Origin: Candidatus Alcyoniella australis
GTDB taxonomy: Bacteria > Lernaellota > Lernaellaia > JAVCCG01 > Alcyoniellaceae
Reading direction: 5' to 3'
Length of the DNA stretch: 64,000 bases
NCBI GenBank assembly: GCA_030765605.1
Contig: JAVCCG010000017.1
Coordinates: 35,582 to 99,581 of the forward strand
The notes beneath the pieces were generated by a model that saw only the letters and a list, made by a program, of their open reading frames with translations, was not told the DNA's origin and did not search any database. This document shows positions 6,425 through 55,978 of this stretch, piece after piece. The position numbers and the translations under genes were made by a program. The first letter of the stretch is position 1; each line of letters begins with the position of its first letter.

Positions 6425-8775
6425 AACCGGTCGGCCGTTCCGAGCTGCTAGGCGTCTCGGGGCTGTTGCTGCTGCTGATCGCGCTGTTCCTCTCGCCGCT
6501 GCTGATCCCCGGCGTGATGCCTTCGGCCTCGGGCATTTTGCACGTTTGGCCGACCTTTGAGATCGACGCGGACTATCGTCCCTACAACGATCTGCCCTCG
6601 GACCTGGCGGTGCAGCACGAGCCGTGGACGCATTACGCCCGGCAGCGGTTGGCCCAGGGCGAGCTGCCGCTGTGGAACCCGCACCAGGCCGCGGGCGTGC
6701 CGTTCATCGCCAACATGCAATCCGCGGTCTACTCGCCGCTGACCTGGATCGTCTACCTGCTGGGTGACCGCTGGGGGCCGGTGGCGCGCGCCGCGCTGAT
6801 TCTCTACCTCTCGGGCATGCTGGCCTTCCTGCATTTGCGCGGGCTGGGTTTGGGCCCGCGTCCGGCCCTGGTGGGAATGGTCGGCTGGACCTTTGGCGGG
6901 GCCCTGGCGCACTGGCTGTTCTGGCGCAGCTCGTTGTTCGGATTTCTGCTTCCCGGCTCGCTGTACCTTACCGACCGCGCCTTTAAACGGCCGGATAAAC
7001 TCGCCTCGTGCGCGTTGCTACTAGCGGCGCTGGTGGCCCTGGGAATCACCGCGGGCCACCCCGAGCGGGTGATGCTCTGCGCTGTGGCCGCGGCTGCCAA
7101 CCTAGTCTATCGCAGCTTGATCTGCGGCCTGCCGTGGCGCGAGCGTGGGCGCGCGATCCTGGGACTTGTGGGCGGAGGGCTCTACGGCGGGCTGCTCTCG
7201 TCAGCCGCGCTGCTGCCGTTTATCCAGTACTCGCAAAACAGCGTGGCCTGGGTCTCGCGCGCCGGGGGCTACGCCGCGGGCCTGCTGCCCAAGTCCGCGG
7301 CCGTGCTGTTGTTCGCGCCGGATCTCTACGGCAATCGCGGGCTGTGGTTCAGCATCGATTGGTCCGCGCCGTGGACCAACGATTGCGAGGCGCTCAACGC
7401 GGTTGTCGGCCTGGCGCTGCTGATGCTCGCGGCAATCGGGCTGCGCCGCGGCAGGGCGGGGCGTTGGTTTTATTTTGCGTTGGCAGTGGGCGCGGCGCTG
7501 TTGGCCTACGGCGTGTGGCCCGCCTGGCCGCTGGCCAATCAGCTACCCCTGCTCGATCGCATGGCCCTTGGCCGCTTCAGCGCGCTGTTGGCCTACGCGC
7601 TGGTGGTGCTGGCCGTCATGGCCCTGCAGGATTTGGCGCAGGGAAAGTACGACCCGCTTTCCGGGCCCTCGCTGGTGCGCATCGGCGCGCTGTTCAGCGT
7701 TGGAGCGCTGCTCGTGGCCTGGAATCTGCTCAACGTCGATCGCTTTGTGCGCTCGCCGGGGATCCAAACCTGGTGGGTCGGCTGCGCCGTGCTTGCCGCG
7801 TTGAGTGCCGTAATCTGCCTCTGGCTGCTGCGCGGCATCGGCCGCAACAGCGGCTGGGCCTGGGTCGGACTGGTAGTGTTGGTGTTCCTCGAGACCGGCG
7901 GGCGCTGGGCCGGGTTCTCACCGCAGGTGCCCGATGAACTGTATTTTCCGCGCACAGCCGCGGTCGAACAACTGCGCGCTGCTGCCGGTCGCGGACGTTT
8001 CGCGGCGGTGGGATTGGCCAACCCGTTTGCGCCCAACCTGGCTACCGAGTACGGGCTGCGCGACGTCAAGGTCTACGACAACCTGGAGATCATGGAGTAC
8101 CGCGTGCTGTTCGACGAACGGATCGAACATTTCAGCACTGGTCAGATCACCCAGCGCTTTGACCTTGACGCGCTAAGCGTGCTCGGGGTTCAGGCGGTCC
8201 TGGCGGTCAACGAGGACCCGGCGACCCTGGCGACGGCCGACGCCTCGCGCCTCGAGCCATACTACGCGGGTCGCGGCGTGTTCATCAGTCGCAATCCCGA
8301 GGCCCTGCCACGAGCGTTTTTTGTCAGCGCCGCGCGTCAAATTGCGAGCCCGGCCGACGTGTTCGAGCGCGACGCTCAGGGCCTGATCGCACGCCGCGCA
8401 GTGCTGTTGCAGCAGGCGCAGCCGCCGTTGCAGCCGATTCCACTCGAGTCCATCGATGCAGTACGCTGGCTGCGCGACACACCGGAGCTGGTGCAGCTTG
8501 AGGTCGATGCGCCACGGCGAGGCTGGCTGGTGCTGCTCGACTCGTACTTTCCAGATTGGTGCGTGCTGGTAGACGGCGAGCAAGCAACGCTGCTGCGCGC
8601 AAACCTGGCGTTCCGCGCGGTGGCGATCGAGGCCGGCCGTCACGTGGTGCGCTTCGAGTATCGGCCGCGCTGGGTTTACCTCGGGCTGCTGCTCAGCGCT
8701 CTGGCCACGCTGATTTGGCTGGCGGCGGCTGCGACCTGCGTGCTGCGCGGTCGACGGATGACAAGCGGCGACTAG
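6421..8775 (+). CDS. YfhO-like GT-C family polytopic membrane protein (putative polyprenyl-phosphate-dependent glycosyltransferase)
   Basis: About 784 aa with many N-terminal TM helices and a LPLWNPHQAAGVPFIANMQSAVYSPL motif. It has a large C-terminal extracytoplasmic domain and a final TM helix. Its ATG overlaps the menA stop (ATGA). Confidence 0.4.
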   Translation: MKPVGRSELLGVSGLLLLLIALFLSPLLIPGVMPSASGILHVWPTFEIDADYRPYNDLPSDLAVQHEPWTHYARQRLAQGELPLWNPHQAAGVPFIANMQSAVYSPLTWIVYLLGDRWGPVARAALILYLSGMLAFLHLRGLGLGPRPALVGMVGWTFGGALAHWLFWRSSLFGFLLPGSLYLTDRAFKRPDKLASCALLLAALVALGITAGHPERVMLCAVAAAANLVYRSLICGLPWRERGRAILGLVGGGLYGGLLSSAALLPFIQYSQNSVAWVSRAGGYAAGLLPKSAAVLLFAPDLYGNRGLWFSIDWSAPWTNDCEALNAVVGLALLMLAAIGLRRGRAGRWFYFALAVGAALLAYGVWPAWPLANQLPLLDRMALGRFSALLAYALVVLAVMALQDLAQGKYDPLSGPSLVRIGALFSVGALLVAWNLLNVDRFVRSPGIQTWWVGCAVLAALSAVICLWLLRGIGRNSGWAWVGLVVLVFLETGGRWAGFSPQVPDELYFPRTAAVEQLRAAAGRGRFAAVGLANPFAPNLATEYGLRDVKVYDNLEIMEYRVLFDERIEHFSTGQITQRFDLDALSVLGVQAVLAVNEDPATLATADASRLEPYYAGRGVFISRNPEALPRAFFVSAARQIASPADVFERDAQGLIARRAVLLQQAQPPLQPIPLESIDAVRWLRDTPELVQLEVDAPRRGWLVLLDSYFPDWCVLVDGEQATLLRANLAFRAVAIEAGRHVVRFEYRPRWVYLGLLLSALATLIWLAAAATCVLRGRRMTSGD

Positions 8776-8794
8776 CGCACTAACATCCACGACC

Positions 8795-9928
8795 ATGGAT
8801 GATCGAACCATCGCCGTTGTCGGCGGCGGTCCGGCGGGCGCCTACCTGGCGCATTTGCTCGGGGCTGCCGGTGCGCGCGTGGACCTCTACGAACCGCGCG
8901 GCGCGTGGGAAAAACCCTGCGGCGGCGGCGTGCCGCCCAAAGTGCGCCAGCTGATCCCCGAGGCCGCGAGCTACGGCGGACCGCGCAATGTAGTGGACAC
9001 CGGCGTGTTCATCAGCCCGCGCGGAATCGAGATGAGCTTTCGCTCCGGGCGACCGCTGTGGATCGTGCCGCGCCTTGATTTCAACAAGCATTTTCTCAAC
9101 CTGGCGCGGCAACACGCGGGCGTGGCGATCCATCGTCTGCGGGTCAGGGCGGTCCGGCGCGACGGCGATGGCTGGGTGCTGCACTGCGGCAAGGGCGAGC
9201 GGCCGCGACGCGCGGACTTCCTGGTGGCTGCCGACGGCGCGAGCTCGCTGGTGCGCAGGTCCGTGCTCGGAGCGCTGGGCCGCCGCAACCTGACGACCTG
9301 TTTTGGATTTCTCACCGATCCGCCGGACGACCCCACGCGCGCGGTCAGCCAGTTTCTCCCCGGATCGGGCTACATCTGGGCCTACCCGCGGCCGGACCGG
9401 ATGTGCGTGGGCGCGGGCACCTGGGGCTCGGCGCGTTCGCTGGATCGGGTAGTGCGGCGCTTTATCGATCAGCGTTTTCCCGGCATTAAAATTCGCTCGC
9501 GCTGGTCGGCGCTGATCCCGTTCGTGCACGAACCGGAACTCTACGACCGGCCCTGCTCAGGCGAGCGCTTCGCCGCGTTGGGCGACGCCGCGGGCTGGGT
9601 CGACGCGATCACCGGCGAGGGGATCCTCTACGCGCTGTGGGGCGCGCGGCTGCTGGCGCAACGATTAATCGAGGACCGTCCGTTGCTGTTCGACGATGAC
9701 TGGCGCGACGCCTTTGGCCGCGAGCTGCGGCGCGTATCCCAGATGGGCCTGCGCTTCTACCGGCCGGAGAACATCGAACGCGCTTTTAGCCTGGCCGCGC
9801 GCTCGCGCACGCTGGGCGAACTGGTGGCGCAGATCATGACCGATCAGCCCGAGTACAGTCGGGTGCCGATGATGTTCGCCCGCCGACTGCCGCTGGTGGC
9901 CCTGGACCTGCTGCGGGGCAGACGATGA
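8795..9928 (+). CDS. geranylgeranyl reductase family FAD-dependent oxidoreductase (MenJ/ChlP-like)
   Basis: IAVVGGGPAGAYLA dinucleotide-binding motif and a PCGGG motif; 377 aa. Confidence 0.65.
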   Translation: MDDRTIAVVGGGPAGAYLAHLLGAAGARVDLYEPRGAWEKPCGGGVPPKVRQLIPEAASYGGPRNVVDTGVFISPRGIEMSFRSGRPLWIVPRLDFNKHFLNLARQHAGVAIHRLRVRAVRRDGDGWVLHCGKGERPRRADFLVAADGASSLVRRSVLGALGRRNLTTCFGFLTDPPDDPTRAVSQFLPGSGYIWAYPRPDRMCVGAGTWGSARSLDRVVRRFIDQRFPGIKIRSRWSALIPFVHEPELYDRPCSGERFAALGDAAGWVDAITGEGILYALWGARLLAQRLIEDRPLLFDDDWRDAFGRELRRVSQMGLRFYRPENIERAFSLAARSRTLGELVAQIMTDQPEYSRVPMMFARRLPLVALDLLRGRR

Positions 9929-11043
9929 ACCGTCGCGAATGGTCGGTGGCGGCGCTGTTGGGAGCGGCGTTCTCGTTCTACGTGGTTTTCGACCAGTACG
10001 GCCTGCTGGGCTGGGCCCAAAGCGCGTTGGGTGTGGACGTGTGGGGCATGGCGCCGCTGCTTGGTTGCCTGGTGGTCTGCGGAGCGCTGAGCGCCGTGGC
10101 CGCGTCGCGGGCGATCGTCGCGCTGCGGCCGGGATTCGCGGCGCAGATCAAGCTGATTGCCACGGCCCAACTCGCCGAAGGGATCGTCGGACTGTTGTGC
10201 TTGGCCGCGGACTCGCGCGCAGAGCTGTTGTGGCCGTTGGCCGCGCTCGGAGTCGTGCAGGGCGTGCACATCGTGCTGATCCTCGGGTTGCTAAACAGTG
10301 CCACGCGTCCGGCGCGGCTGGGCTGGTCAGCGGGCGTGGCCGCGGGCATCGCCTATTTGCTTGCTAATTTGCTGACGGCGGTCTTCCCTGACGATCCGCG
10401 CGGCCTGTGCCTCGCGGCCTGCGTGCTGAGTCTGGTTGTGGGCTTGCTCGCGGCCCTGGCAGTGGAGCAATCGTTGCCGCAGGTGGAACTGCGCGAGCTC
10501 AATCGGGAGCCGGGAGGCCGCTCGCTGATCGCCGTGCTGCTGCTGGTGGTGGTACTCGACAGCGCGCTGTGGCAGGTGCTGACCTCCCTGGGCGGCGGCG
10601 TGGCCTTGGGGCCCCAATCTCCGCGCGAACTGTGGCTGCTCAATGGGTTGCTGCACCTGGCCGCGGCAATCGTTGGGGGGCTGCTCTGGCCGCTGCTCGG
10701 GTCGCGTCGCCTGGCCGCGCTCGGCGGACTGCTGATCGGCCTGAGCGCGGCGCTGGTGGCTTGGTCCCCGGACAACGCGCCGCTGTGGGGCGTGCTGCTG
10801 CTGCAAAGCGCGTCGGTCGGGATCTACTCGGTGGCGCTCTATGCCGCGTGGTCCGAGCTTGGGCTGCGGGCCGTGGGGCCGGGCATCGCCCTGGTCGGCT
10901 TTGTCGGATCTCCGTTGGGCGTGGGCCTGGGAATGTTGCTGGGACGCTTCCCGCGCCTCGGATTGTGGCTGCTGGCGCTGTGTGCGATCTGCGTCGGACT
11001 CGGTTTTCTCATACGGCCGACATCGCGCAGTACAGATCGCTGA
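9925..11043 (+). CDS. polytopic integral membrane protein (transporter-like, roughly 10-12 TM)
   Basis: Highly hydrophobic 372-aa ORF. Its start overlaps the upstream stop (ATGA). Confidence 0.45.
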   Translation: MNRREWSVAALLGAAFSFYVVFDQYGLLGWAQSALGVDVWGMAPLLGCLVVCGALSAVAASRAIVALRPGFAAQIKLIATAQLAEGIVGLLCLAADSRAELLWPLAALGVVQGVHIVLILGLLNSATRPARLGWSAGVAAGIAYLLANLLTAVFPDDPRGLCLAACVLSLVVGLLAALAVEQSLPQVELRELNREPGGRSLIAVLLLVVVLDSALWQVLTSLGGGVALGPQSPRELWLLNGLLHLAAAIVGGLLWPLLGSRRLAALGGLLIGLSAALVAWSPDNAPLWGVLLLQSASVGIYSVALYAAWSELGLRAVGPGIALVGFVGSPLGVGLGMLLGRFPRLGLWLLALCAICVGLGFLIRPTSRSTDR

Positions 11044-12493: not shown

Positions 12494-13414
12494 ATGGACT
12501 TGTATGACAGCGTAATAATCGGTGCCGGCCCCGCCGGACTGACGGCTGCGATCTACGCCGGCCGCGGCGGAATTAACGGCGTGCTGCTCGAGCGAATGAT
12601 TCCCGGCGGCCAGATCGCGGCCACCGAGTTGGTCGAGAACTACCCCGGATTTCCAGAGGGGATAATGGGCGCGGACCTCGCGGCCAAGATGCGCGAACAG
12701 GCGCTCAAATTTGGCGTGAACATCGAGAGCATCGACGTCGAGGCCGTGCAGCGGGCCGACGACGGATTTGAGATCCACGGCTCGGGCAAGACCCTGCACG
12801 CACGTAGCGTGATTCTGGCGATGGGTACCCAGCCGCGGATGCTGGGCATCAGCGGCGAGGCCGAGTTCTTCGGCCGCGGCGTCTCGACCTGCGCCACATG
12901 CGACGGCCCGCTCTACCGCGGCAAGCAGGTGGCCGTGATCGGCGGCGGCGACTCGGCGATCCAAGAGGCGCTGTTTCTGACCAAATTCTGCTCGCGGGTG
13001 CACGTGATCCATCGCCGCGACGCCCTGCGCGCAGTGCCGGCTCTGGGCGAGCGCGCCAAAGCATCGGAGAAGATCGAGATCCACTGGGACAGCGTGCCGC
13101 TGGCCGTGCTCGGCGACAACAGCGGAGTCAGCGGACTGCGCCTGCGCAACGTCAAGACCGACGAGCAGTCCGAGCTGGAGCTGCCCGGCGTGTTCATGTT
13201 CATCGGTTTGCTGCCTAACATCGCCTGCGCCCAGCCGCTGGGGCTCAAGCTGGACGAGGGGCGCTTCATTCTTACCGACCAGCAGCTCGCCACGTCGATC
13301 CCCGGCGTATTCGCTGCGGGCGACATTCGTTCCAAGACCCAACGTCAGCTGGTGACCGCAGTGGGCGACGGTGCCCAGGCGGTGTTTAGCGTCGAGAGGT
13401 ATCTCGAACCGTGA
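12494..13414 (+). CDS. trxB: thioredoxin-disulfide reductase
   Basis: VIIGAGPAG FAD motif, CATC redox-active dithiol and a second GGGDSA NADPH motif; 306 aa. Confidence 0.85.
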   Translation: MDLYDSVIIGAGPAGLTAAIYAGRGGINGVLLERMIPGGQIAATELVENYPGFPEGIMGADLAAKMREQALKFGVNIESIDVEAVQRADDGFEIHGSGKTLHARSVILAMGTQPRMLGISGEAEFFGRGVSTCATCDGPLYRGKQVAVIGGGDSAIQEALFLTKFCSRVHVIHRRDALRAVPALGERAKASEKIEIHWDSVPLAVLGDNSGVSGLRLRNVKTDEQSELELPGVFMFIGLLPNIACAQPLGLKLDEGRFILTDQQLATSIPGVFAAGDIRSKTQRQLVTAVGDGAQAVFSVERYLEP

Positions 13415-14172
13415 GCATCGAGGTCGACCTTTCCGGACAGGTCGCGCTGGTCAGCGGCGCTGGACGCGGCATCGGCGCTGCCATCGCCCTGAGCCTGGCG
13501 CGCTGCGGCGCCGACGTGGCGCTGGGCGCGCGTAGCGCGGCGCAGCTCGAGGCCGTGGCCACGCAGATCGAGGCGCTCGGACAGCGGGCGCTGGTAGTGC
13601 AGGCCGACCTGCGCGAGCCCGAGGCCGCCGAATCCATGGTGCAGCGCACCCAGGCGGGTCTGGGCGGTCCGCAGATCCTGGTGCACGCCGCGGGCGTCGA
13701 ACGCCACAAGGCCACGCTCGAGACCTCGGACGAGGACTACGCCGCGGTGCTCGACACCAACCTGGGGTCGTGCTTCCGGCTTTGCCGCGCCGCGGGTCGG
13801 ACGATGATCGAGGACAGCGGCGGCAGCATCCTGCTGATCGCCTCGGTGGGCGCGTTCGTGGCCATGCCGCGCAACGCCCCGTACCACGCGAGCAAGGCCG
13901 GGATGGTGATGCTCGCTAAGTCCCTGGCCGTGGAGTGGGCGCGCCACGGAATCAGGGTCAACGCCCTGTGCCCAGGCTACGTGCAGACCGCGATGCTCGA
14001 CTCGCTGCTGGGCGACGAGCAGCGCAAGGAGCGCTTTCGCAAGATGATTCCCCTGCGACGCTTTGCCGATCCCGATGAGATCGGCCGACTGGCGGCCGTG
14101 CTCGTCTCTCCGCTGAGCTCGTACATAACCGGCACCGCGATCGTGGCCGACGGTGGAATCAGCGCAAGCTAG
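13411..14172 (+). CDS. SDR family oxidoreductase
   Basis: VSGAGRGIG cofactor motif and YHASKAG catalytic motif. Translationally coupled to trxB (GTGA overlap). Confidence 0.75.
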   Translation: MSIEVDLSGQVALVSGAGRGIGAAIALSLARCGADVALGARSAAQLEAVATQIEALGQRALVVQADLREPEAAESMVQRTQAGLGGPQILVHAAGVERHKATLETSDEDYAAVLDTNLGSCFRLCRAAGRTMIEDSGGSILLIASVGAFVAMPRNAPYHASKAGMVMLAKSLAVEWARHGIRVNALCPGYVQTAMLDSLLGDEQRKERFRKMIPLRRFADPDEIGRLAAVLVSPLSSYITGTAIVADGGISAS

Positions 14173-14293
14173 CCCGGCTTTGAGCCGGCACAAATCTCGC
14201 GTATTACGCTGGTCGTTGACCAACGATCCACTCCGCGACGCGGAAAATATCGTGGAGCAACGTGCTTAGTCCGCTCGCGTGTTTTACCGCACT

Positions 14294-14833
14294 TCAATGG
14301 TGCTGGTTCGCCCAGATGCCGATTTCCCTATCGCGGGCCTGCTGCTCGACCTCGAGATAGTGCTGCTTGAGCTGCTGGTCGTAGTCAAAGTGACGGATGA
14401 CCTCGGCCAGTCCCTGCTCGATCATCAGTTCGGAAAAGTCACTGCCGTCGGGCAGCTCCACATGGGCCAGCAGTCGGCCGTATTTATCGCGGTGGCTGCG
14501 CTGCTCGTTGGCCCGATCCAGACGCAGCAGCACGCGCCTGCTTGAAAGCAGAGTGCGGGCCTGCTGCTTGGCCTTCTGGGCATAGGGCTGGTCCGGACTC
14601 CCGGCGCGGGCCAATTCCGGAGTGTCGATTCCGATTACGCGTACGCGCTCGATCCGTCCGTGTTCGTCAATGCGAGCGTTGAATGTATCGCCGTCTATCA
14701 CGGTTACGACCTTAGCGCTAAGCTCGTTTTTCCCTGCTGCGGCGTTGTCCTGTGCAGCGCGATGCAGGCCGACGCTGACCAGCACGGCGGCAATTATCAG
14801 CAGCGGTAGAATCCAGCGGATTTGTTTTCTCAT
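14294..14833 (-). CDS. thermonuclease (SNase-like) family protein, secreted
   Basis: VIDGDTF...IDTPE...YGRLLA motifs and an N-terminal TM/signal segment. Confidence 0.65.
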   Translation of the reverse strand: MRKQIRWILPLLIIAAVLVSVGLHRAAQDNAAAGKNELSAKVVTVIDGDTFNARIDEHGRIERVRVIGIDTPELARAGSPDQPYAQKAKQQARTLLSSRRVLLRLDRANEQRSHRDKYGRLLAHVELPDGSDFSELMIEQGLAEVIRHFDYDQQLKQHYLEVEQQARDREIGIWANQHH

Positions 14834-15072
14834 CGAAATACTCCCACGGTCGATCAACTAAAAAAGTATATCGCGGATCAGGTGCGAGACTTAGTTGTCT
14901 GGACAGGCATGCTTTGTCTAGCCTTCATCAAGAATGCGGACGAAGACACTGTTGGTGAAGAATTCGGGATAGCCTGCGGCACGACTTTGCAGTAAGATTT
15001 GACCTCAGGTTGCGCGCGAAAACCGTGCGGAGTAACCTTTGAGTCCCGCAGCCACTCAGGCGTTGAGCAACA

Positions 15073-16226
15073 ATGTCTATCAGAGCCACCAAGCAGATTG
15101 AAAACAGCCCGTTACCCGGGGGACCGGCGTTCATTCAGGGTAACGAGGCCATCGCAGATGCCGCGGTAATCGCCGGTTGCCGCTTTTTCGCCGGCTACCC
15201 GATCACTCCATCGAGCGAGATCATGCGCCGCATGATCGAGCGCTTCCACACTCTGGACGGCCGCTTCGTGCAGATGGAGGACGAGTTGGGCTCGATCGCC
15301 GCGGTGATCGGCGCGGCCTGGACCGGCGCCAAGGCGATGACCGCCACCTCGGGCCCCGGCCTGAGCCTGATGATCGAGAACCTGGGTTACGCCACGATGA
15401 CCGAAACCCCGCTGCTGCTGGTCAACGTCCAGCGCGTGGGGCCGTCCACAGGCCAGGCCACACGTCCGGCGCAGGGTGATGTGATGCAGGCGCGCTGGGG
15501 TGGGCACGGCGGTTTCCCCTGCATCGCGCTGGCTCCCTCATCGGTGCAGGAACTGATCGACTTCACCATCCGCGCCTTCAACCTGGCCGAGGCGTTTCGC
15601 ACGCCGGTGCTGCTGATGGCCGACGAGATCGTCGGGCATCTGCGCGAGAACTGCGTGTTCCCCGAACAGGTCGAGATCTGGCAGCGCTATTACGCGCCGG
15701 GCGAGCCGCCGTTCGACACCGACCACCCGAGCCTGGTGCCATCGATGCCCAAGTTCGGCGATGGCGAGGATCTGCTGATTACCGGCTCGACCCACGATGC
15801 CCGCGGCCTGCGCATGGCATCCAGCGCCGAGGTCCAAGCGCGCGTAAGCTGGCGGCTGCACGAGAAGTTCGAACGCGGTCGCGACGAGATCGTACGCACA
15901 CAGCACTTCGGCGAAGCGCAGCCCAAGCTGCTGCTGGTCTCGTACGGCGGCTCGGCGCGCGCTGCAAGGCAGGCGCTGACCCGGCTGCTCGACCAGGGAC
16001 GCGACGCGGGCCTGCTCAAACTCGACACGCTCTGGCCGTTTCCCGAGCAGCAGCTGCAAGCCGCGGCGGCCAAGGCCGATCAGGTACTGGTGGTTGAGGC
16101 CAACTGCGGACAGATCGTACTCGAGGTCGAGCGGCTGCTGCGCAACGGCCCGCGTGTGACCGCGCACCTGCGGCACGATGGCGAGGCGATAACTCCCAGC
16201 GAGGTGCTCGCCGCGGCGGAGGCGCT

Positions 16227-16230
<4 letters not shown>
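15073..16230 (+). CDS. korA: 2-oxoacid:ferredoxin oxidoreductase subunit alpha
   Basis: FIQGNEAIADAAVIAGCRFFAGYPITPSSEI N-terminal signature of POR/KOR alpha; 385 aa. Confidence 0.8.
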
Positions 16231-18415
<2,185 letters not shown>

Positions 18416-18542: not shown

Positions 18543-19550
18543 TTGATGCGTCTACGATGCCTGCTGTTGCTGCTGCTCGTACCGGCTCTGGTACTCCTCG
18601 CGTCTTTTGCCTGCGAAGACGGCGGAGGCGACGATGAGGACGACAGCGACGATGACGATGATTCCGGCGACGACGACTCGGGCGGCGACGGTGAGCCGCC
18701 GACGATGCGTACGGTGACCGAGCTTGGAAATACCGACGACCAGACCGGCCCCTATCCGGTGGAAGCGCGGATCACGGACAACGTCAGAGTCGCGGGCGTG
18801 CGGCTTTATTACGATCTGGGCCAGGGCTTCCAGGATTTCTGGATGACCAAATTCGGCGCCGACGGCTATCGCGGACAGATCCCGGGCCAGGAAGCGGGGT
18901 CCACGATCCGCTACTTTGTCAAAGCCTGGGACGATGCGCTCAACGAATCGTACTGGCCCGCTGGCGGCCAGGACGCGCCCCAGGTGTTCCACGTGCGCGG
19001 CACCGTGGCCTTGGCTTATGATGACGACCTGCTGCCCGATTCGTATTACGGCGTGCAGCGCGCCGGCGACTGCCTGGTGGTGCGTTTCACCCCGCCGAGC
19101 TACCCGGCGCAGTTCCTGACCTTCAGCCATTACATCTGGGATTACCAGATGCCTCCCGATGATCGCTACCGGCCCATCGTGCTGTTCGACCCCAGCGCCT
19201 CGGGCATTCCGCCGATGCCCAACGTGCCCAACGTGCCCAACGACGGTATTTGGCGCGGCGAGATTGTGGAAGAGGGCACCATTGAGCGCCGTACTTGGTA
19301 CAACTTCGAGTTCGACGGCGAGCCCGAGCTGGAGCAGGCGCTGGAGTCGGGCGACGCCTACATCGGCGTGGAGTTCGTCGAGGTGGCGAACGACGAAGAG
19401 GATATCCTCACCTTCGGTCTGGACACCACCGATCCGACCCATGCACGCACCTGGTACTTCGACCAGAGTCGGCTGACCTGGATCAACATCGACGAACATC
19501 TGCACGTCAAGGGCAACCTGATGTTCCGCAGCAGCGTCCAGTTGCAATAG
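18543..19550 (+). CDS. lipoprotein with poly-acidic (Asp-rich) linker, function unknown
   Basis: Signal peptide ending LLASFAC, then CEDGGGDDEDDSDDDDDSGDDDSGGDGEPP. Confidence 0.55.
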   Translation: MMRLRCLLLLLLVPALVLLASFACEDGGGDDEDDSDDDDDSGDDDSGGDGEPPTMRTVTELGNTDDQTGPYPVEARITDNVRVAGVRLYYDLGQGFQDFWMTKFGADGYRGQIPGQEAGSTIRYFVKAWDDALNESYWPAGGQDAPQVFHVRGTVALAYDDDLLPDSYYGVQRAGDCLVVRFTPPSYPAQFLTFSHYIWDYQMPPDDRYRPIVLFDPSASGIPPMPNVPNVPNDGIWRGEIVEEGTIERRTWYNFEFDGEPELEQALESGDAYIGVEFVEVANDEEDILTFGLDTTDPTHARTWYFDQSRLTWINIDEHLHVKGNLMFRSSVQLQ

Positions 19551-25600: not shown

Positions 25601-26404
25601 CTATTCGCAGGCCGTAGCGCGCATCAGCAGTTCGGCCTCGAGTTGGTTGCTCACCGCTCCCAGGGCGTCGGCGACCTGTACGCTGAACTGTGACGACGAC
25701 TCCGCGGGCGCGGTTTCGGTCAGGGTTACCTCAAGCTCCAGAGTTCCCTCGGTCTGTTCCAGATCCGGGGAGATGATGAACGGATTAATGCTTCCTTCAT
25801 CGATGATGACCAGAATCATCCCACCGCCGAGATTGCCGTCGAGATCGGCGAAATCGACCAGCATCGTGCTGGTGCTGCCCACCAGATTGCACACCGGGTT
25901 GGGATCGAAGCGCAGGTTGCTGATCGAGGGTGTGCGGTTGGCCGGGGCCACCTCGAACGTCGCCTCGAGTACGTTGCTTTGGTTACCCGCGGCGTCGACG
26001 ATCCAGACGGCTAGTAGATGCTCACCAGGTTGCGCGTCCTCGGCCGGCAGCACATTGGACATCAGCTCGCCCTCGCCGCGCTCCTCGTGGATGATCGTCA
26101 CCGGCTCGCGCTCCACCGTATCCACTGCCGCGTGAATCGATCCGCCGATCAGGTCGGCATCGGGATCAACGAAATGGATCACGAAGTTCAGCGCGCCGCC
26201 CTGTGGCACCTGCTCGGGGTAGGTGATCAACTCCGAGATCTGCGGCGCACTGTAGTCGTCGTCATCGTCGTCGTCGATGTCGTCGTCCTGGTCGTCGTCA
26301 TCATCATCATCGTCGTCGCCGCTATCCGCGCAGGCTGCCAGCAGCAGCGCGGTTAGGGCGATAGCGAGCAGAATGCGCCAAAGTGTGATGCGTGTTGTTT
26401 TCAC
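25601..26404 (-). CDS. lipoprotein with poly-Asp linker, function unknown
   Basis: Lipobox LLAAC followed by ADSGDDDDDDDDDQDDDIDDDDDDD. Confidence 0.55.
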   Translation of the reverse strand: MKTTRITLWRILLAIALTALLLAACADSGDDDDDDDDDQDDDIDDDDDDDYSAPQISELITYPEQVPQGGALNFVIHFVDPDADLIGGSIHAAVDTVEREPVTIIHEERGEGELMSNVLPAEDAQPGEHLLAVWIVDAAGNQSNVLEATFEVAPANRTPSISNLRFDPNPVCNLVGSTSTMLVDFADLDGNLGGGMILVIIDEGSINPFIISPDLEQTEGTLELEVTLTETAPAESSSQFSVQVADALGAVSNQLEAELLMRATACE

Positions 26405-26664
26405 CAGATGTCCGATGGGATGTCGCCGTTGGCCGCCAGTAGCAGGTCGACCAGGGCGTCGTTAAAGAAGTTGTGCGAGTCGTTGATCGAACGCGCCGTC
26501 TGCGAGGCGTAGAACTTGCGACCCTGGGCGATCTCGTCGGCCAGCGCCTCGAACAGATTGTCGCGGCGGATGCCGCTGCGCACCCTGGGACCGTTGTAGA
26601 GCAGGATGTCCGAGACGATGCCCCGCGCCAGCTCGCGCGCCTTGGAAGGATTGTCGATGGTCAT
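26401..26664 (-). CDS. hypothetical protein (87 aa)
   Basis: ORF overlapping both neighbours by 4 nt. No motif recognised. Confidence 0.35.
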   Translation of the reverse strand: MTIDNPSKARELARGIVSDILLYNGPRVRSGIRRDNLFEALADEIAQGRKFYASQTARSINDSHNFFNDALVDLLLAANGDIPSDIW

Positions 26665-28046
26665 TTGACCTCCACCGCGACCATCCGCCGCTCGCCGTCG
26701 CGCACGCTCTCAAACAGCACGCTGGTGCCCGGCGCGCGGCTCCACAACAGCGTGGCCAGCTGCTCGGGCCGGTTGATCGGAAAGCCATCGGCCTTTTCGA
26801 TCACGTCGCCCACCTGCAGGTCCACGGCCTGCTGCACGGTGGCCGGATCGATCTTTACGACCATCACGCCGCCGCTTTGGTCCAGTCCCTCGGGCATTGC
26901 CACTACGCTGATCCCGATCAAGGCCTCGGTGCCCTGCGGCCACTGCGATTCGTAGAGCCGGTAGTCGTCCGGCGCGGGCAGCAGACGAGCATTAAGCTCG
27001 TTGGGCTGACCGTGGCGCACCAGCTCGATCTGCACCTCGGAGTAGGGCGGGATGCGCGAGATCAGCCGCTGCAGCGAATGGAAGTCGTCGATCGGCTCGG
27101 AGTTCACCGCGGTCAGCATGTCGCCGGGAATAATTCCCGCTTTAGCCGCCGGTGTTCCCGGCCGCGCCTCGGTTACCATTACCGCGCCGCCGCGCTGCTT
27201 GCCTCGCGCCCGCGCCTGGCCCGGAGTAAGGCTTGAGCCGGAGAGCCCAAGGAACGAACGGCGGACTTTACCGCCGGAGGCGAGCTGAGCCGCGACCCAC
27301 CTACACGTATCCAGCGGCACGGCGTAGCCCACACCCTGGCGCGTACCCAATCTGGTCAGCAGCCCGATCACGCGGCCGTCGAGGGTCAGCAGCGGCCCGC
27401 CGGCCAGCTCGTCGATCACCGCGATGTTGGTCTGGATAAAGGTTTCGTAACCATCGTACCCCTCGGGCAACCGGCCCGAGGCGAGCACCACGCCGTGAGC
27501 CATGCTGCGTCCGCCGGAGAGTATCCCGCCCACGCCCACCACCCAGCGTCCCGGCTGGGGCGTCACGCTTCCGGCCAAATCGGGAACGGGCAGTTCCTCT
27601 CCCGCGTCGACCTTTAGCAGCGCCAAATCGCAAAGCTCGTCGATGCCCACAAGCTCGGCGGGCAGCTCGCGGCCGTCGGGCAGCTCGACAAACGTCGCCA
27701 GGTTGCCCTCGACCTGATGCGCGGTGGTCAGGATCAGCCCCTGGGGGTCGATCGCCATGCCCGAGCCCAGGCGCAACGCCGAAGCGCTGCCGGTCTGCAA
27801 GGCCACGGATCCGGGCTGCTCGATCGCGACCTGCTGAATGTGGCGCGTGCGCACCAGCACCACGGAGGGCGCGACGAATCCGGCGACGTCGATGATCCGC
27901 GCCTCCAGGTCGTCCAGACCCGGCGCGGGCGGCATCAGCGGCTGGACCACCGGCGGCGGCGCGGGCTCGCAGCCCGCCGTCAGTGCCAGTAGCGTAATAA
28001 TCAATGCGAAAACGAGCTTGTTCACGTAATCCAGTCCTCGGATCAT
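26661..28046 (-). CDS. DegP/HtrA-like trypsin-fold serine protease with PDZ domain(s), lipoprotein
   Basis: TTAHQV (His), GGPLL (Ser region), C-terminal PDZ-like segments and a lipobox LTAGC. Confidence 0.65.
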   Translation of the reverse strand: MIRGLDYVNKLVFALIITLLALTAGCEPAPPPVVQPLMPPAPGLDDLEARIIDVAGFVAPSVVLVRTRHIQQVAIEQPGSVALQTGSASALRLGSGMAIDPQGLILTTAHQVEGNLATFVELPDGRELPAELVGIDELCDLALLKVDAGEELPVPDLAGSVTPQPGRWVVGVGGILSGGRSMAHGVVLASGRLPEGYDGYETFIQTNIAVIDELAGGPLLTLDGRVIGLLTRLGTRQGVGYAVPLDTCRWVAAQLASGGKVRRSFLGLSGSSLTPGQARARGKQRGGAVMVTEARPGTPAAKAGIIPGDMLTAVNSEPIDDFHSLQRLISRIPPYSEVQIELVRHGQPNELNARLLPAPDDYRLYESQWPQGTEALIGISVVAMPEGLDQSGGVMVVKIDPATVQQAVDLQVGDVIEKADGFPINRPEQLATLLWSRAPGTSVLFESVRDGERRMVAVEVK

Positions 28047-30107: not shown

Positions 30108-31505
30108 CTAAGCCTCAAATCTGAGCGCCGCAATCAGCGCCAGCGCCGCGGGCTCGAGCTCGTGCGGCTCTAGGGTGCGCGGATCGAGCAGCAGCCGTTC
30201 GCGGCTGATGCGCGCGATCAACGGTGGATCGCCACGGCGCAGCCTTGCGGCCAGCTCGTCCACCGAAACCGCGAGCGGCTCGATCGCCACAGCGCGGGTC
30301 GGCAGTTCGATCAACGGCAGCGCGCCGCCCCCGGCGCGACTGGTCTCGTCGACGATCTCGAGCTTGGCCGCGCCCTGCGGCAGCGACGCCAGTAGCTCGA
30401 CCAACCGTGCGGCGCGCTGTTGCAACTGCGTTGGATCGATGGTCAGGGCAGCCAGGGTCGGCACCTCGCGTATCGCGGTTTGCGGGTCGAGCGAGAGCCG
30501 CAGGGTCGCCTCCAGAGCGGCCAGGGTCATCTTGTCCAGGCGCAGAGCGCGCGCCAGCGGATGGCGCTTGCAGCGCGCGATCAGTTCGGACTTGCCCGCC
30601 AGGATCCCGGCCTGCGGTCCGCCGAGCAGCTTGTCGCCCGAGAACGTGACCAGGTCCACGCCCTCGTCGAGCACTTGGCGCGCGGTGGGCTCGTCGCCCA
30701 ATCCCCACTGCGCGAGGTCGATCAGGCAGCCCGAGCCCAGGTCCTCGACCAGCGGCAGGCCGTGTTCGCGGCCAAGCGCTGTCAGTTCGCCGCGCGAGAC
30801 CTCTTGGGTAAAGCCGACGATGCGGTAGTTGCTGGTGTGCGCGCGCAGCAGCAGCGCAGTGTCCGGGCCGATGGCCTGTCGGTAGTCGCTCAGGTGGGTC
30901 TTGTTGGTCGAACCGACCTCGACCATCTGGGCGCCAGAGGCGGCCATCACTTCTGGAATGCGGAACGATCCGCCGATCTCGACCAGCTGCCCGCGGCTGA
31001 CGATCACCTGTTTGTCGCCGGCCAACGCAGCCAGGGCCAAAAGCACCGCGCCGGCGTTGTTGTTCACGGCGAACGCGTCCTGCGCACCCGTGGCCTCGAT
31101 CAGCAGCTCGCGCACCAGATCGTGGCGCGAACCGCGCTCGCCGCGCTCCAGGTCGTACTCCAGGGTCGAGTAGCTCACTGCGCAACGCTGCGCAGCCCGG
31201 GCCGCCTCGGCGGCCAAACGGCTGCGGCCCAGGTTGGTGTGAAGCACGATTCCCGTGGCGTTGAGCACCGGCTCGAGGCGCGGCCGCAATCTACGTTGCA
31301 GCTCGCCGGACACCAGCTGGGGCCAGCTCGCGGACTGGGGCGGCCCTGCGCCCTGGATGATAGCCTGCCGTACACGCTCCACGGCTGAGCGTGCCGCGGC
31401 CCCCACGTGGGTCCGGCCGTGTTTCTCGATCAGGCCCTTGACCGGCTCGAGTTCGAGCAGCGCTCCCACCTGGGGCAGGCTGCGCAACGCATCTTTAGCA
31501 GTCAT
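30108..31505 (-). CDS. selA: L-seryl-tRNA(Sec) selenium transferase (selenocysteine synthase)
   Basis: 465 aa. Long colinear similarity to my recollection of E. coli SelA (VLHTNLGR, SYSTLEYDL, VNNNAGAVLL, VIVSRGQLVEIGGSFRIPEVM, FSGDKLLGGPQAGI, DKMTLAALEATLRL). Confidence 0.85.
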   Translation of the reverse strand: MTAKDALRSLPQVGALLELEPVKGLIEKHGRTHVGAAARSAVERVRQAIIQGAGPPQSASWPQLVSGELQRRLRPRLEPVLNATGIVLHTNLGRSRLAAEAARAAQRCAVSYSTLEYDLERGERGSRHDLVRELLIEATGAQDAFAVNNNAGAVLLALAALAGDKQVIVSRGQLVEIGGSFRIPEVMAASGAQMVEVGSTNKTHLSDYRQAIGPDTALLLRAHTSNYRIVGFTQEVSRGELTALGREHGLPLVEDLGSGCLIDLAQWGLGDEPTARQVLDEGVDLVTFSGDKLLGGPQAGILAGKSELIARCKRHPLARALRLDKMTLAALEATLRLSLDPQTAIREVPTLAALTIDPTQLQQRAARLVELLASLPQGAAKLEIVDETSRAGGGALPLIELPTRAVAIEPLAVSVDELAARLRRGDPPLIARISRERLLLDPRTLEPHELEPAALALIAALRFEA

Positions 31506-39516: not shown

Positions 39517-40065
39517 CTACTCGACCGTGAATTCGGCCTGGCCCAGCAGGCCGTTTTGAGCGTCGATCACCTCGACGCGCCAACGTCCGGTCTGCGAGGG
39601 TGCGATCGTCTTGTACGAGTAGGTGCGGAACGGCGTGCTGCGGATCTCGAGTGCGATGCGCGAGACCGGCTGATCCTCGTAGTACCAGACGTGGGTCACG
39701 CTGGTGGGCTCGACGAACGGCTCGAGGGCCACGCGCGAGAGGCAGTAGACACGGCCCACATCCGCGGCAAAGACCTCGGAGGGGCTCACGGCCTCGTGAT
39801 CCTCCACGCCTAGGCAGAACACGAGCTGCACCGAACGTTCCAACAACGTTTCTTGCTGGGGTGCCGCCGCAGTCGGCAAGGCCGCGGGTGCCGGTGTGGG
39901 CGTGGGAGTAGGCGTGGGAGTGGGAGTAGGAGTAGGAGTAGGAGTAGGAGTGGGAGTAGGAGTAGGCGTGGGAGTAATCGGCCCCGGATCCTGTCCCTGT
40001 TGGGCCGCCGCGGGCAGGGCCGTGAGCAGCACGAATAGCAGGCAGATCAGCAGGCTGAGCCTCAT
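39517..40065 (-). CDS. secreted protein with (Thr-Pro)14 linker, function unknown
   Basis: Signal peptide, then TPTPTP... repeat, then a roughly 110-aa C-terminal domain. Confidence 0.5.
   Translation of the reverse strand: MRLSLLICLLFVLLTALPAAAQQGQDPGPITPTPTPTPTPTPTPTPTPTPTPTPTPTPAPAALPTAAAPQQETLLERSVQLVFCLGVEDHEAVSPSEVFAADVGRVYCLSRVALEPFVEPTSVTHVWYYEDQPVSRIALEIRSTPFRTYSYKTIAPSQTGRWRVEVIDAQNGLLGQAEFTVE
39893..39976. repeat. tandem hexanucleotide repeat (14 units, GGNGTR-like) encoding (TP)14
   Basis: 84 bp of near-perfect 6-nt units within the CDS at 39517..40065. Confidence 0.8.
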
Positions 40066-55877: not shown

Positions 55878-55978
55878 GCTTCACTCCATCTGGGACCGCG
55901 CTGATCTTAGCAAGAGGGCCGCCGGGGTAGCAACGCCATTTGACAGGCACTCAACGGCTGCGGACAATGAATTGCACT

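What the first reader, a model, noticed from the sequence alone, without database searches (positions are those of the whole stretch)
18603..18711. Recurrent poly-Asp/acidic tracts immediately after the lipobox cysteine in several lipoproteins
At least four envelope proteins in this window carry an uninterrupted Asp-rich run directly after the lipidated Cys, or in one case at the C-terminus. (i) 18543..19550: CEDGGGDDEDDSDDDDDSGDDD. (ii) 25601..26404: CADSGDDDDDDDDDQDDDIDDDDDDD. (iii) 42231..44435: CSCSGDDDDDDDDDDDDDDN. (iv) The CocE hydrolase C-terminus at 36500..38248: DDDYDNDDDDTAGDDDDDADG. Such acidic tethers could act as lineage-specific lipoprotein sorting or retention signals, calcium-binding tethers or flexible spacers. 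At DNA level they create GAC/GAT microsatellites that are prone to length variation.
Basis: seen in the sequence. Interest (0 to 1): 0.5.

Follow-up and report, generated by a model that had tools for sequence, protein, structure and literature searches.

The report
Poly-aspartate tethers on bacterial lipoproteins
Several exported proteins of this uncultured Antarctic-lake bacterium have a floppy, strongly negative aspartate-rich stretch next to the cysteine that is predicted (lipidation not tested) to anchor them to the membrane; this looks like a lineage-specific form of the known lipoprotein linker, and a possible C-terminal version of it is unexplained.

Summary
All four tracts are at the stated genes. 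The three strong Asp tracts of the 64 kb window, found in a six-frame scan, each begin within five residues of a lipobox cysteine. The window comes from the Candidatus Alcyoniella australis MAG (Lernaellota, Ace Lake).

The tracts are not chance. In a pan-bacterial sample only about 2 of about 75 poly-Asp tracts follow a lipobox. Orthologues at 25-56% identity keep an Asp-rich tract of variable length and sequence, from about 12 to about 115 residues. In the family of protein (i), 10 of 12 lipoproteins carry the tract and 0 of 137 non-lipoproteins do. The AlphaFold model puts the tract in a low-confidence coil between the signal helix and well-folded beta domains.

My best reading is a polyanionic, disordered tether between the lipid-anchored Cys and very acidic folded domains. 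That makes it a compositional variant of the known N-terminal lipoprotein linker. A sorting role like the Bacteroidota lipoprotein export signal is not excluded.

The microsatellite claim is only partly right. Codons are mixed and perfect repeats reach at most 5 units. Relatives at 90% identity or more differ by D5 to D7.

The C-terminal tract of the CocE hydrolase belongs to a second class: an Asp-rich tract followed by a terminal CC/CXC cluster. I found 7 such cases in 220 kb of related loci and none in the genome control loci.

The parts
18543..18614 (+). Protein (i): signal peptide and lipobox (LLASFAC); Cys24 codon at 18612..18614
   Evidence: ORF. Heuristic lipoprotein call. The Cys is nearly invariant in the 12-member family alignment A2. 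AlphaFold models a helix at residues 2-19.
18615..18701 (+). Protein (i): Asp-rich tether E25..P53 (EDGGGDDEDDSDDDDDSGDDDSGGDGEPP; 14 D, 3 E, no K or R)
   Evidence: pLDDT is 45-59 and the model is coil over residues 20-53. Homologues carry tracts of about 12 to about 115 residues at the same place.
18702..19547 (+). Protein (i): folded part, an Ig-like domain plus a beta-sandwich domain; very acidic (pI 4.3)
   Evidence: pLDDT is above 90 from residue 54. Foldseek matches the Ig-like domain of P. gingivalis PPAD, E about 1e-6. The domain repeats in giant proteins. pI.
26330..26404 (-). Protein (ii): signal peptide and canonical lipobox (LLLAAC); Cys25 codon at 26330..26332
   Evidence: The protein is identical to P0001, NCBI locus tag P9M14_01715, Ca. 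Alcyoniella australis.
26255..26329 (-). Protein (ii): tether ADSG-D9-Q-D3-I-D7 (20 D in 25 residues)
   Evidence: Orthologues P0002 (56% identity) and P0003 (42%) keep an Asp-rich tether with a different sequence and length.
25604..26254 (-). Protein (ii): mature part with a weak Ig-like (Big_13) signal; pI 4.05; invariant Cys two residues from the C-terminus
   Evidence: Pfam, E=0.0016, which is below the curated cut-off. Alignment A1. pI.
42231..42308 (+). Protein (iii): signal peptide with two candidate lipobox cysteines (IGGGC24-S-C26)
42309..42368 (+). Protein (iii): tether SG-D14-NQGD; the D14 run lies at 42315..42356
   Evidence: Close homologues P0005, P0007, P0010, P0013, P0016, P0017 and P0019 have a lipobox followed by a poly-Asp tract.
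42369..44432 (+). Protein (iii): FG-GAP/VCBS repeats plus an ASPIC/UnbV domain (CRTAC1 family); pI 4.05
   Evidence: Pfam. Homologues named CRTAC1 family. pI.
36557..36616 (-). Protein (iv), CocE/NonD S15 hydrolase: C-terminal Asp-rich tract D545..D564
36503..36556 (-). Protein (iv): C-terminal tail GQPPDEHDRNQSCCGGSV with the Cys pair at 36515..36520; the stop codon follows directly and the next gene starts at 36496
   Evidence: The same layout (Asp-rich tract, then terminal CC/CXC) occurs in six further ORFs in L245 and L247; five of them have signal-peptidase-I leaders and the sixth, a 97-aa ORF, has no clear leader.

Best explanation
The tracts are this lineage's version of the N-terminal intrinsically disordered tether of bacterial lipoproteins.

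Proposed mechanism, all of it inferred:
- The protein is exported, Cys+1 receives a diacylglyceryl group, and signal peptidase II removes the leader.
- A 25-30 residue segment (up to more than 100 residues in relatives) then connects the lipid anchor to the first folded domain. It is almost pure Asp with some Gly, Ser or Thr, has no basic residues, and carries a net charge of about -17 to -20.
- Such a polyanion cannot fold. It is repelled by the anionic membrane surface and by the very acidic domains it carries (pI 4.05-4.4).
- It therefore acts as an extended spacer of roughly 10 nm that holds the domain away from the membrane. It probably binds divalent cations loosely along the way.

Shown here:
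- The position of the tracts and their predicted disorder.
- Conservation of presence but not of sequence or length.
- Coupling to lipoprotein status.
- Use of the same Asp-rich material as interdomain and C-terminal linkers in exported proteins of related organisms.

Not shown: lipidation, final location and the physical behaviour of the tether. Selection appears to act on composition and presence. Length drifts by small in-frame insertions and deletions.
For: (1) Position. All 3 strong Asp tracts in the window begin at +2 to +5 after a lipobox Cys.

(2) Disorder. In the AlphaFold model of (i), built with a 12-sequence alignment, residues 20-53 are coil with pLDDT 45-59. They lie between a signal helix and beta domains with pLDDT above 90.

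(3) Conservation of presence only.
- Orthologues of (ii) at 56% and 42% identity keep the tract with a different sequence.
- Ten full-length homologues of (i) at 25-32% identity all have a lipobox and an Asp-rich tract of about 12 to about 115 residues, ending at a conserved PP(V/T)I motif.
- The one homologue with a signal-peptidase-I leader (P0165) has no tract.
- Corrected count for that family: 10 of 12 lipoproteins against 0 of 137 non-lipoproteins.

(4) Lineage rather than family. Among the listed top 120 CRTAC1-family hits (of 156 below the cut-off), only the closest ones carry the tract.

(5) Generic linker use. Asp-rich tracts also lie between domains (P0016 and P0010; L244 7150..8295; L249) and at C-termini. 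In 220 kb of related loci every such tract is in an ORF with an export signal, apart from one 97-aa ORF (L247 18109..18402) that has no clear leader.

(6) No obvious restriction to surface proteins. Carriers include a TlpA/AhpC-like thioredoxin and a penicillin amidase as well as adhesin-like proteins.

(7) Published work in E. coli shows that N-terminal lipoprotein linkers must be disordered and long enough, and that their sequence is irrelevant (bioRxiv 10.1101/2021.01.05.425367).

(8) The pan-bacterial background is different. About 2 of about 75 runs of 8 or more Asp follow a lipobox, and most are acidic tails of proteins without signal peptides (Fisher p=1.3e-4).
Against: - A pure spacer does not explain why Asp is used almost exclusively rather than Glu, Ser or Pro. 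The same genome also uses Pro-rich and Pro-Thr linkers, in the HtrA-like lipoprotein at 26661..28046 and the DUF2914 protein at 39517..40065.
- It does not explain why only about a third of the lipoproteins have the tract.
- It does not explain why the carriers are exactly the most acidic exported proteins. That pattern would also fit a class-specific sorting signal.
- In most cases the acidic residues start at +2 to +6, which is where the Bacteroidota export signal sits.
- Lipidation, localisation and disorder are all predictions; nothing was measured.
- The related loci were chosen because they contain a tract-bearing protein, so frequencies there are biased upward.
- Signal peptides were called with a home-made rule.
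Confidence: 0.55

Rival explanations
1. The acidic run is a sorting signal that sends these lipoproteins to the cell surface, working like the lipoprotein export signal (LES) of Bacteroidota. The extra length would be secondary.
For: - The LES is a polar or basic residue followed by 2-4 Asp or Glu at +3 to +6: C-X-K-(D/E)2-X in C. canimorsus, SDDDD in B. fragilis. It is sufficient for surface exposure (PMC5080379).
- Most tracts here start at +2 to +6 after small or polar residues, for example C-ADSGDD, C-SCSGDD, C-GDDDD and C-DDDD.
- Only a subset of lipoproteins has the tract, and that subset is the most acidic, adhesin- or enzyme-like class.
- The HtrA-like lipoprotein and the other lipoproteins in the window lack it.
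Against: - The organism is Lernaellota, not Bacteroidota.
- The tracts are 5 to 20 times longer than an LES.
- Some start only at +8 to +10 after poly-Gly (P0007, P0240, P0262) or beyond +25 (L180).
- Identical Asp-rich material also serves as interdomain and C-terminal linker.
- A TlpA/AhpC-like thioredoxin lipoprotein, normally a periplasmic function, carries one.
Confidence: 0.2
2. The acidic tract is an inner-membrane retention (Lol-avoidance) signal. It would be an exaggerated form of the Asp+2 rule of E. coli, and the tether would let the domain reach across the periplasm.
For: - It is established knowledge that Asp at +2 with an acidic or amide residue at +3 keeps E. coli lipoproteins in the inner membrane.
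- Several homologues start C-DDDD or C-DQGDDD (P0005, P0010, P0017, P0155).
Against: - None of the three window proteins has Asp at +2; they have E, A and S.
- Orthologues differ at +2 (S, G, A, D, H, Y), which does not fit a position-specific rule.
- In E. coli, long disordered linkers are typical of outer-membrane lipoproteins, not inner-membrane ones.
- The +2 rule is known not to hold outside enterobacteria (background knowledge).
Confidence: 0.07
3. The main function is high-capacity, low-affinity binding of divalent cations or mineral surfaces at the cell envelope (Ca2+, Mg2+, metal sulfides), as with poly-Asp proteins in biomineralisation. Tethering would be incidental.
For: - Poly-Asp binds Ca2+ strongly; this is background knowledge, and the Asp-rich protein literature surfaced.
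- The habitat is a marine-derived, sulfidic, meromictic lake (PMC9324843).
- The carried domains include Ca-binding FG-GAP repeats.
- The carrier proteins are very acidic throughout.
Against: - A cation-buffering role has no need for the tract to sit exactly at the anchor or between domains.
- Length varies ten-fold among homologues.
- The tract is absent from the non-lipidated homologue P0165.
- No binding data exist.
Confidence: 0.1
4. The tracts are selectively neutral products of trinucleotide slippage in tolerant, disordered regions and have no function of their own.
For: - Length differs among proteins at 90% identity or more (D5, D6, D7) and widely among homologues.
- Tandem Repeats Finder detects period-3 arrays.
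Against: - Codons are mixed and perfect runs reach at most 5 units, so slippage is weak.
- The tract persists across 25-56% identity in three unrelated families and in genomes of 46-67% GC.
- Presence is tightly coupled to the lipobox: 10 of 12 against 0 of 137.
- Cytoplasmic proteins in the same loci lack such tracts.
Confidence: 0.08

Closest known systems
N-terminal intrinsically disordered linkers of Gram-negative lipoproteins (RcsF, NlpD and Pal in E. coli; El Rayes et al., bioRxiv 10.1101/2021.01.05.425367)
   Same: - It sits directly after the lipidated Cys and the sorting residues.
- It is longer than 22 residues and predicted to be disordered.
- Presence and length matter while sequence is free.
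- It is found on only part of the lipoproteins.
   Different: - The composition here is extreme: 50-80% Asp, no basic residues, and homopolymer runs up to D14 in the window.
- Length reaches more than 100 residues in relatives.
- It is restricted to Lernaellota and to MAGs labelled Myxococcales or Deltaproteobacteria.
- The same material is reused as interdomain and C-terminal linker.
- Dependence on Lol is untested.
Lipoprotein export signal (LES) of Bacteroidota (Lauber et al. 2016, PMC5080379; Valguarnera et al. 2018, PMC6222051)
   Same: Acidic residues, with Asp preferred, lie immediately after Cys+1, often preceded by a small or polar residue. The B. fragilis consensus SDDDD resembles C-SGDDDD and C-GDDDD here.
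   Different: - The LES is a 4-5 residue motif that is critical for position, and it was defined experimentally in another phylum.
- The tracts here are 25 to more than 100 residues long and start at variable positions.
- They also occur away from the N-terminus.
- Surface exposure is unknown.
Asp+2 Lol-avoidance signal of Enterobacteria
   Same: A negative charge next to the lipidated Cys.
   Different: - Position +2 is E, A or S in the window proteins.
- It varies among orthologues.
- The tract extends far beyond +3.
[quoted passage not shown]
   Same: - For the CocE-type C-termini, there are Cys residues at the C-terminal end of exported proteins, preceded by low-complexity sequence.
- In L247 an Rce1-like CPBP gene lies directly downstream of one such gene.
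   Different: - The known tags are tripartite: a Cys motif, a transmembrane helix and an Arg cluster.
- Here the protein ends 0-5 residues after a CC/CXC cluster, with no helix and no basic tail.
- No CPBP gene lies in the window.

Membership tests
Bacterial lipoprotein (Lgt/LspA substrate) | N-terminal signal peptide with a basic n-region and a hydrophobic core | tested here: met
   All three have K or R near the start and a Leu/Ala/Val-rich core. AlphaFold models a helix at residues 2-19 of (i). The rule used is heuristic, not SignalP or LipoP.
Bacterial lipoprotein (Lgt/LspA substrate) | Lipobox [LVI][ASTVI][GAS]C at the end of the signal peptide | tested here: inconclusive
   (ii) L-A-A-C is canonical. 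(iii) G-G-G-C, or C-S-C, is relaxed. (i) S-F-A-C is atypical. In the family of (i) the Cys column is at least 90% conserved, with lipoboxes such as GAGC, FASC, GFAC and LGAC.
Bacterial lipoprotein (Lgt/LspA substrate) | Cys+1 carries diacylglycerol and an N-acyl group | not testable with these tools
   This needs mass spectrometry or globomycin sensitivity.
Disordered N-terminal lipoprotein linker (El Rayes et al.) | A segment longer than 22 residues directly after Cys+1 and the sorting residues, lacking secondary structure | tested here: met
   The tethers are 29, about 25-29 and about 22-26 residues long. For (i), the model is coil with pLDDT 45-59 over residues 20-53. (ii) and (iii) were not modelled.
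Disordered N-terminal lipoprotein linker (El Rayes et al.) | Sequence is not conserved while presence is | tested here: met
Disordered N-terminal lipoprotein linker (El Rayes et al.) | Needed for efficient Lol-dependent transfer to the outer membrane | not testable with these tools
   No Lol genes lie in the window, and there is no genetics for this uncultured organism.
Bacteroidota lipoprotein export signal (LES) | Occurs in Bacteroidota, which have the cognate export pathway | tested here: not met
   The window is from Ca. Alcyoniella australis, phylum Ca. Lernaellota.
Bacteroidota lipoprotein export signal (LES) | A short motif, polar or basic residue then (D/E)2-4, fixed at +2..+6 | tested here: inconclusive
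   Acidic residues are present at +2 to +6 in most cases. However, the tracts run 14 to more than 100 residues, and in some homologues they start at +8 to +10.
Bacteroidota lipoprotein export signal (LES) | Sufficient to expose a lipoprotein on the cell surface | not testable with these tools
   Requires reporter fusions.
Asp+2 Lol-avoidance signal | Asp at position +2 | tested here: not met
   +2 is E in (i), A in (ii) and S in (iii). It varies among orthologues.
Slippage-driven contingency (phase or length variable) microsatellite | A long perfect tandem repeat, with length polymorphism between near-identical strains | tested here: not met
   GAC and GAT are mixed and the longest perfect run is 5 units. 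A second assembly is identical over 1190 nt. Variation (D5-D7) is seen only between proteins at 90% identity or more from different MAGs. Read-level polymorphism was not testable.
MYXO-CTERM-like Cys C-terminal sorting domains (for the CocE C-terminus) | Tripartite tag: a Cys motif, then a transmembrane helix, then an Arg-rich cluster | tested here: not met
   The Cys cluster is present, but the ORF ends 5 residues later and the next gene starts 4 nt after the stop. The six related cases end 0-1 residues after the last Cys.

The most novel reading that the evidence does not exclude
In Lernaellota-like bacteria, Asp-rich tracts would mark a dedicated class of very acidic cell-surface proteins, each held by a terminal cysteine at one end or the other. 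At the N-terminus the anchor is the classical lipobox Cys. At the C-terminus it would be a previously undescribed minimal tag: an Asp-rich tract followed by a terminal CC/CXC cluster, with no transmembrane helix. That tag would be modified (lipidated or cross-linked), possibly with the help of a CPBP/Rce1-like enzyme. On this reading the acidic tract is part of the recognition or sorting determinant rather than a passive spacer.
Probability: 0.15. Interest if true: 0.7.

Novelty: new variant of a known kind. Interest (0 to 1): 0.42.

Why it matters
Lipoprotein tethers and post-lipobox signals decide where envelope proteins end up, and almost everything known about them comes from Proteobacteria, Bacteroidota and spirochaetes.

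Here a whole uncultured lineage uses near-homopolymeric aspartate for that segment. The tract is tightly coupled to the lipobox and to a class of extremely acidic cargo proteins. This gives three things:
- A simple sequence signature for predicting a distinct envelope protein class in Lernaellota and in MAGs labelled Myxococcales or Deltaproteobacteria.
- A natural experiment on whether linker charge matters for lipoprotein trafficking.
- A practical warning for annotation pipelines that mask low-complexity sequence.

Tried and rejected
Searches that led nowhere:
- A metagenome search for relatives of (ii) with alignment A1 matched 600 pattern stretches and confirmed none.
- Alignment A3 was too divergent to build search patterns.
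- Alignment A4 returned only 2 loci.
- I tried to extend the contig beyond the window through exact look-ups of the AlaDH and ThiC products. Neither is on record. No whole-proteome test of the MAG was therefore possible.
- Strain-level comparison gave only an identical 1190-nt copy, L001.
- Full-text searches for poly-Asp or Asp-rich tracts after a lipobox found no relevant paper.
- Cluster look-ups gave no taxon names for most relatives.
- NCBIfam and Pfam give no family for (i) or (ii).

Explanations considered and rejected:
- Salt-in halophile proteome. Non-exported proteins of the window have a median pI of 6.5 and almost no net acidity.
- GC-driven codon artefact. Relatives with 46-56% GC have the same tracts.
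- Spurious frame. The tracts lie in the frames with high GC3, and the antisense poly-Val ORF at 26018..26356 is a shadow ORF.
- Phase-variable microsatellite. See the membership test.
- E. coli +2 rule. See the membership test.
Full report
**Observation.**
- Protein (i), 18543..19550(+), reads ...LLASFAC|EDGGGDDEDDSDDDDDSGDDDSGGDGEPP.
- Protein (ii), 25601..26404(-), reads ...LLLAAC|ADSG-D9-Q-D3-I-D7.
- Protein (iii), 42231..44435(+), reads ...IGGGC|SCSG-D14-NQGD.
- Protein (iv), 36500..38248(-), is a CocE/NonD S15 hydrolase. It has a signal-peptidase-I type leader and ends ...GDDDYDNDDDDTAGDDDDDADGQPPDEHDRNQSCCGGSV*.

A six-frame scan of all 64 kb returns only three strong acidic tracts, and they are exactly (i)-(iii). 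Asp makes up 6.2% of coding residues, so a run of nine is expected about 3e-7 times in the window.

My heuristic finds nine lipoprotein-type leaders in the window. Three have 14-20 Asp within +2..+31. The others have Pro-rich or ordinary sequences there, and one is moderately acidic: the lipoprotein at 55976..57076 with 7 Asp.

**Source.**
Proteins (i) and (ii) are identical to NCBI proteins P9M14_01685 and P9M14_01715 of the Candidatus Alcyoniella australis MAG. This is phylum Ca. Lernaellota (formerly FEN-1099), from the anoxic zone of Ace Lake, Antarctica. The describing paper says nothing about lipoproteins or acidic tracts (PMC9324843). The window is 64.3% GC. It contains housekeeping genes and many envelope genes but no Lol components.

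**Is it more than chance or composition?**
- I sampled 80 loci from species-representative genomes that contain (GAY)8. Of about 75 runs of 8 or more Asp, nearly all are internal or C-terminal acidic tails of proteins without signal peptides. Only L180 (a 'Deltaproteobacteria' MAG from the Red Sea) and L196 (Labilithrix) follow a lipobox. Three of three in the window against about 2 of 75 gives Fisher p=1.3e-4.
- In those same 567 kb, 45 lipoprotein-like ORFs have a median of 2 Asp in +2..+31, and only one has 9 or more.
- The effect is not a GC artefact. Related loci with 46-56% GC show the same tracts.
- It is not a halophile-type proteome. Non-exported proteins of the window have a median pI of 6.5.

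**Conservation.**
- Orthologues of (ii) at 56% and 42% identity both have a lipobox followed by an Asp-rich tract of different sequence and length.
- Protein (i) had no relatives in the word-indexed search. The exhaustive HMMER search found 515.
- Ten of its full-length homologues (25-32% identity) all show a signal peptide, a Cys, an Asp-rich tract of about 12 to about 115 residues (often DDDxG or DDDTV units), and then a conserved PP(V/T)I motif that opens the first folded domain.
- The single homologue with a signal-peptidase-I leader (P0165) has no tract.
- After correcting three lipoproteins my rule had missed, 10 of 12 lipoproteins in that family are Asp-rich against 0 of 137 non-lipoproteins.
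- For the CRTAC1-family protein (iii), the closest homologues (P0005, P0007, P0010, P0013, P0016, P0017, P0019) carry post-lipobox poly-Asp. These include MAGs labelled Myxococcales or Deltaproteobacteria. The many distant Bacteroidota lipoprotein homologues do not carry it.
- The trait therefore follows lineage and lipoprotein status, not protein family.

**Structure.**
The AlphaFold model of (i) has mean pLDDT 83.8. It shows a helix at residues 2-19, coil with pLDDT 45-59 over residues 20-53, and confident beta domains from residue 54. The first domain resembles the Ig-like domain of P. gingivalis PPAD and the second is a beta-sandwich. The tract is thus a predicted disordered tether of about 29 residues with net charge about -17. 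That is roughly 10 nm if fully extended.

**DNA level.**
- Asp codons in the tracts are a GAC/GAT mixture: 33% GAT against 28% in the background.
- The longest perfect run is five units.
- Tandem Repeats Finder reports only about 80% matches at period 3.
- An independent ENA assembly is identical over 1190 nt, including the tract of (ii).
- In one cluster at 90% identity or more of CRTAC1 homologues, the post-lipobox run is D5, D6 or D7 with changing Gly/Ser flanks.
- Length therefore drifts among close relatives. These are weak, imperfect microsatellites, and nothing shows population-level hypervariability.

**Wider pattern in relatives.**
I examined eight related loci (L242-L249, about 156 kb) in addition to the window.
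- Every Asp-rich tract lies in an ORF with an export signal, apart from one 97-aa ORF noted below. The tracts lie after the lipobox, between domains, or at the C-terminus.
- Post-lipobox carriers include a TlpA/AhpC-like thioredoxin, a penicillin amidase, an FG-GAP_2 protein and an Lcl_C protein.
- Interdomain examples are P0010, P0016, L244 7150..8295 and L249.
- These loci were found through a tract-bearing protein, so frequencies there are biased upward.
- In the window, the four tract-bearing proteins are also the most acidic exported proteins even with the tract removed. Their pI is 4.05-4.4 and their net charge is -7 to -14 per 100 residues. The median pI of all exported proteins in the window is 5.2.

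**A second class.**
The CocE C-terminus is not an isolated oddity.
- Seven ORFs end with an Asp-rich tract followed by a terminal Cys cluster. Six have signal-peptidase-I leaders. The seventh, the 97-aa ORF L247 18109..18402, has no clear leader and may be a fragment.
- Their C-termini are ...SCCGGSV* (window), ...GGGGGGGCGC* (twice in L245), and ...DDSCCSC*, ...DDSCCG*, ...HCPCYCGC* and ...EGCCGC* (L247).
- The count is 7 in 220 kb. The control genome loci have 0 of 2555 ORFs and the viral loci 1 of 2251 (p=3e-4).
- Known Cys-containing C-terminal sorting tags (MYXO-CTERM and relatives) have a transmembrane helix and an Arg cluster after the Cys. They are processed by CPBP/Rce1-like proteases (bioRxiv 10.1101/2023.06.07.544157). 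The tags here stop right after the Cys cluster.
- In L247 an Rce1-like gene lies directly downstream of one such gene.
- In the window, the CocE gene overlaps by 1 nt the end of an outer-membrane beta-barrel gene that has a weak PorV/PorQ-like hit.
- This is suggestive, but it rests on three loci.

**Interpretation.**
The best-supported reading is that the Asp-rich tract is a polyanionic disordered tether placed next to the anchoring cysteine. It would be a lineage-specific compositional variant of the N-terminal lipoprotein linker. In E. coli that linker must be disordered and long enough, but its sequence is free.

This reading explains the position, the predicted disorder and the free sequence and length. 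It also explains the coupling to the lipobox and the reuse of the same material as a general linker in exported proteins.

It does not explain why Asp in particular is used, or why only the most acidic third of lipoproteins carry it. Those two facts keep a sorting function alive. The closest precedent for sorting is the acidic lipoprotein export signal of Bacteroidota: C-X-K-(D/E)2 and SDDDD (PMC5080379).

I consider three further readings less likely, for the reasons given under the rival explanations:
- An E. coli-type Asp+2 retention rule. The +2 residue is E, A or S and varies among orthologues.
- Pure cation binding.
- Neutral slippage.

**Novelty.**
I found no paper in the searchable library that describes poly-Asp tethers after the lipobox. 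The concept of a disordered lipoprotein tether is established, so I rate this a new variant of a known kind with moderate interest. The C-terminal 'Asp tract plus CC/CXC' class is the part most likely to be truly new, and it needs a genome-wide test.

Noticed in passing
window 36503..36616 (-); L245 3772..5886 and 7183..8037; L247 3658..6165, 12624..15071, 15307..16992, 18109..18402: ORFs end with an Asp-rich tract followed by a terminal Cys cluster (SCCGGSV, GCGC, CCSC, SCCG, CYCGC, CCGC) with no transmembrane helix. Six of the seven have signal-peptidase-I leaders; the 97-aa ORF L247 18109..18402 has no clear leader. I counted 7 in 220 kb of lineage loci, 0 of 2555 ORFs in control genome loci and 1 of 2251 in viral loci. 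The motifs resemble Rab-type CC/CXC ends, but these are exported proteins. This could be a new C-terminal anchor or sorting tag.
   Followed up: partly
L247 1..3236 (-): A large protein with an Rce1-like CPBP intramembrane protease domain (PF02517) is encoded directly downstream of a BNR_4 protein that ends in ...DDDDEGCCGC. CPBP enzymes process the Cys-containing MYXO-CTERM-type tags. This is a single instance.
   Followed up: partly
window 38248..39501 (-) and 39517..40065 (-): The CocE gene overlaps by 1 nt the stop of a 417-aa outer-membrane beta-barrel-like protein. That protein has a weak PorV/PorQ-family hit (NF033709, 30.7 bits, below the cut-off). Upstream lies a DUF2914 protein with a (PT)n linker, encoded by the repeat at 39896..39976. 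The three genes may form an envelope operon.
   Followed up: partly
L245 5926..6966 and 8077..10671: Two lipoproteins with unrelated mature parts share an identical signal peptide and the first roughly 22 residues of the Asp-rich tether. One is a homologue of protein (i) and the other is a penicillin amidase. This suggests that the leader-plus-tether module is duplicated or shuffled. They alternate with two genes that carry the C-terminal GCGC tag.
   Followed up: no
window 42231..44435 (+): Protein (iii) was not returned as an exact or near-exact hit in the protein database; the best hit was 47% identity. Its neighbours (i) and (ii) from the same MAG contig are present. It may be unannotated or called differently in the deposited MAG.
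   Followed up: no
window 50506..52053 (-): A MepA-like (Peptidase_M74) protein with LysM domains and a signal-peptidase-I leader has a roughly 60-residue acidic Glu/Gln/Asp/Ser-rich N-terminal region. This is a different flavour of acidic low-complexity sequence in an exported non-lipoprotein.
   Followed up: no
window 55976..57076 (+): A BNR/sortilin-like lipoprotein (lipobox TLCC) has a moderately acidic Tyr/Gly/Asp-rich tether (TDYADYYGPGGEGLDYDSGNGPYDDSDSSGS) and a pI of 4.4. It is intermediate between the poly-Asp class and ordinary lipoproteins.
   Followed up: no
window 25604..25612 (-); alignment A1: The family of protein (ii) has an invariant Cys two residues from the C-terminus (ATACE, ATACP, NDACL) and one invariant internal Cys. 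These may form a disulfide or serve as another terminal Cys feature.
   Followed up: no
window 30111..31505 (-): A selenocysteine synthase SelA gene is present, so the organism probably makes selenoproteins.
   Followed up: no
L173 and L180 (PBPL01, 'Deltaproteobacteria bacterium RS363', Tara Red Sea): The same MAG appears twice among 80 random poly-Asp loci. One tract, in L180, follows a lipobox after a Gly-rich stretch. This may be another lineage rich in Asp tethers.
   Followed up: no
L244 and L249: The CRTAC1-family lipoprotein sits in conserved synteny in a JGI metagenome contig and in the NCBI 'Myxococcales bacterium' MAG GCA_012517325.1: zinc alcohol dehydrogenase, CRTAC1, two small genes, then an HU-like gene. 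Both copies have post-lipobox poly-Asp tracts and internal Asp-rich linkers.
   Followed up: no
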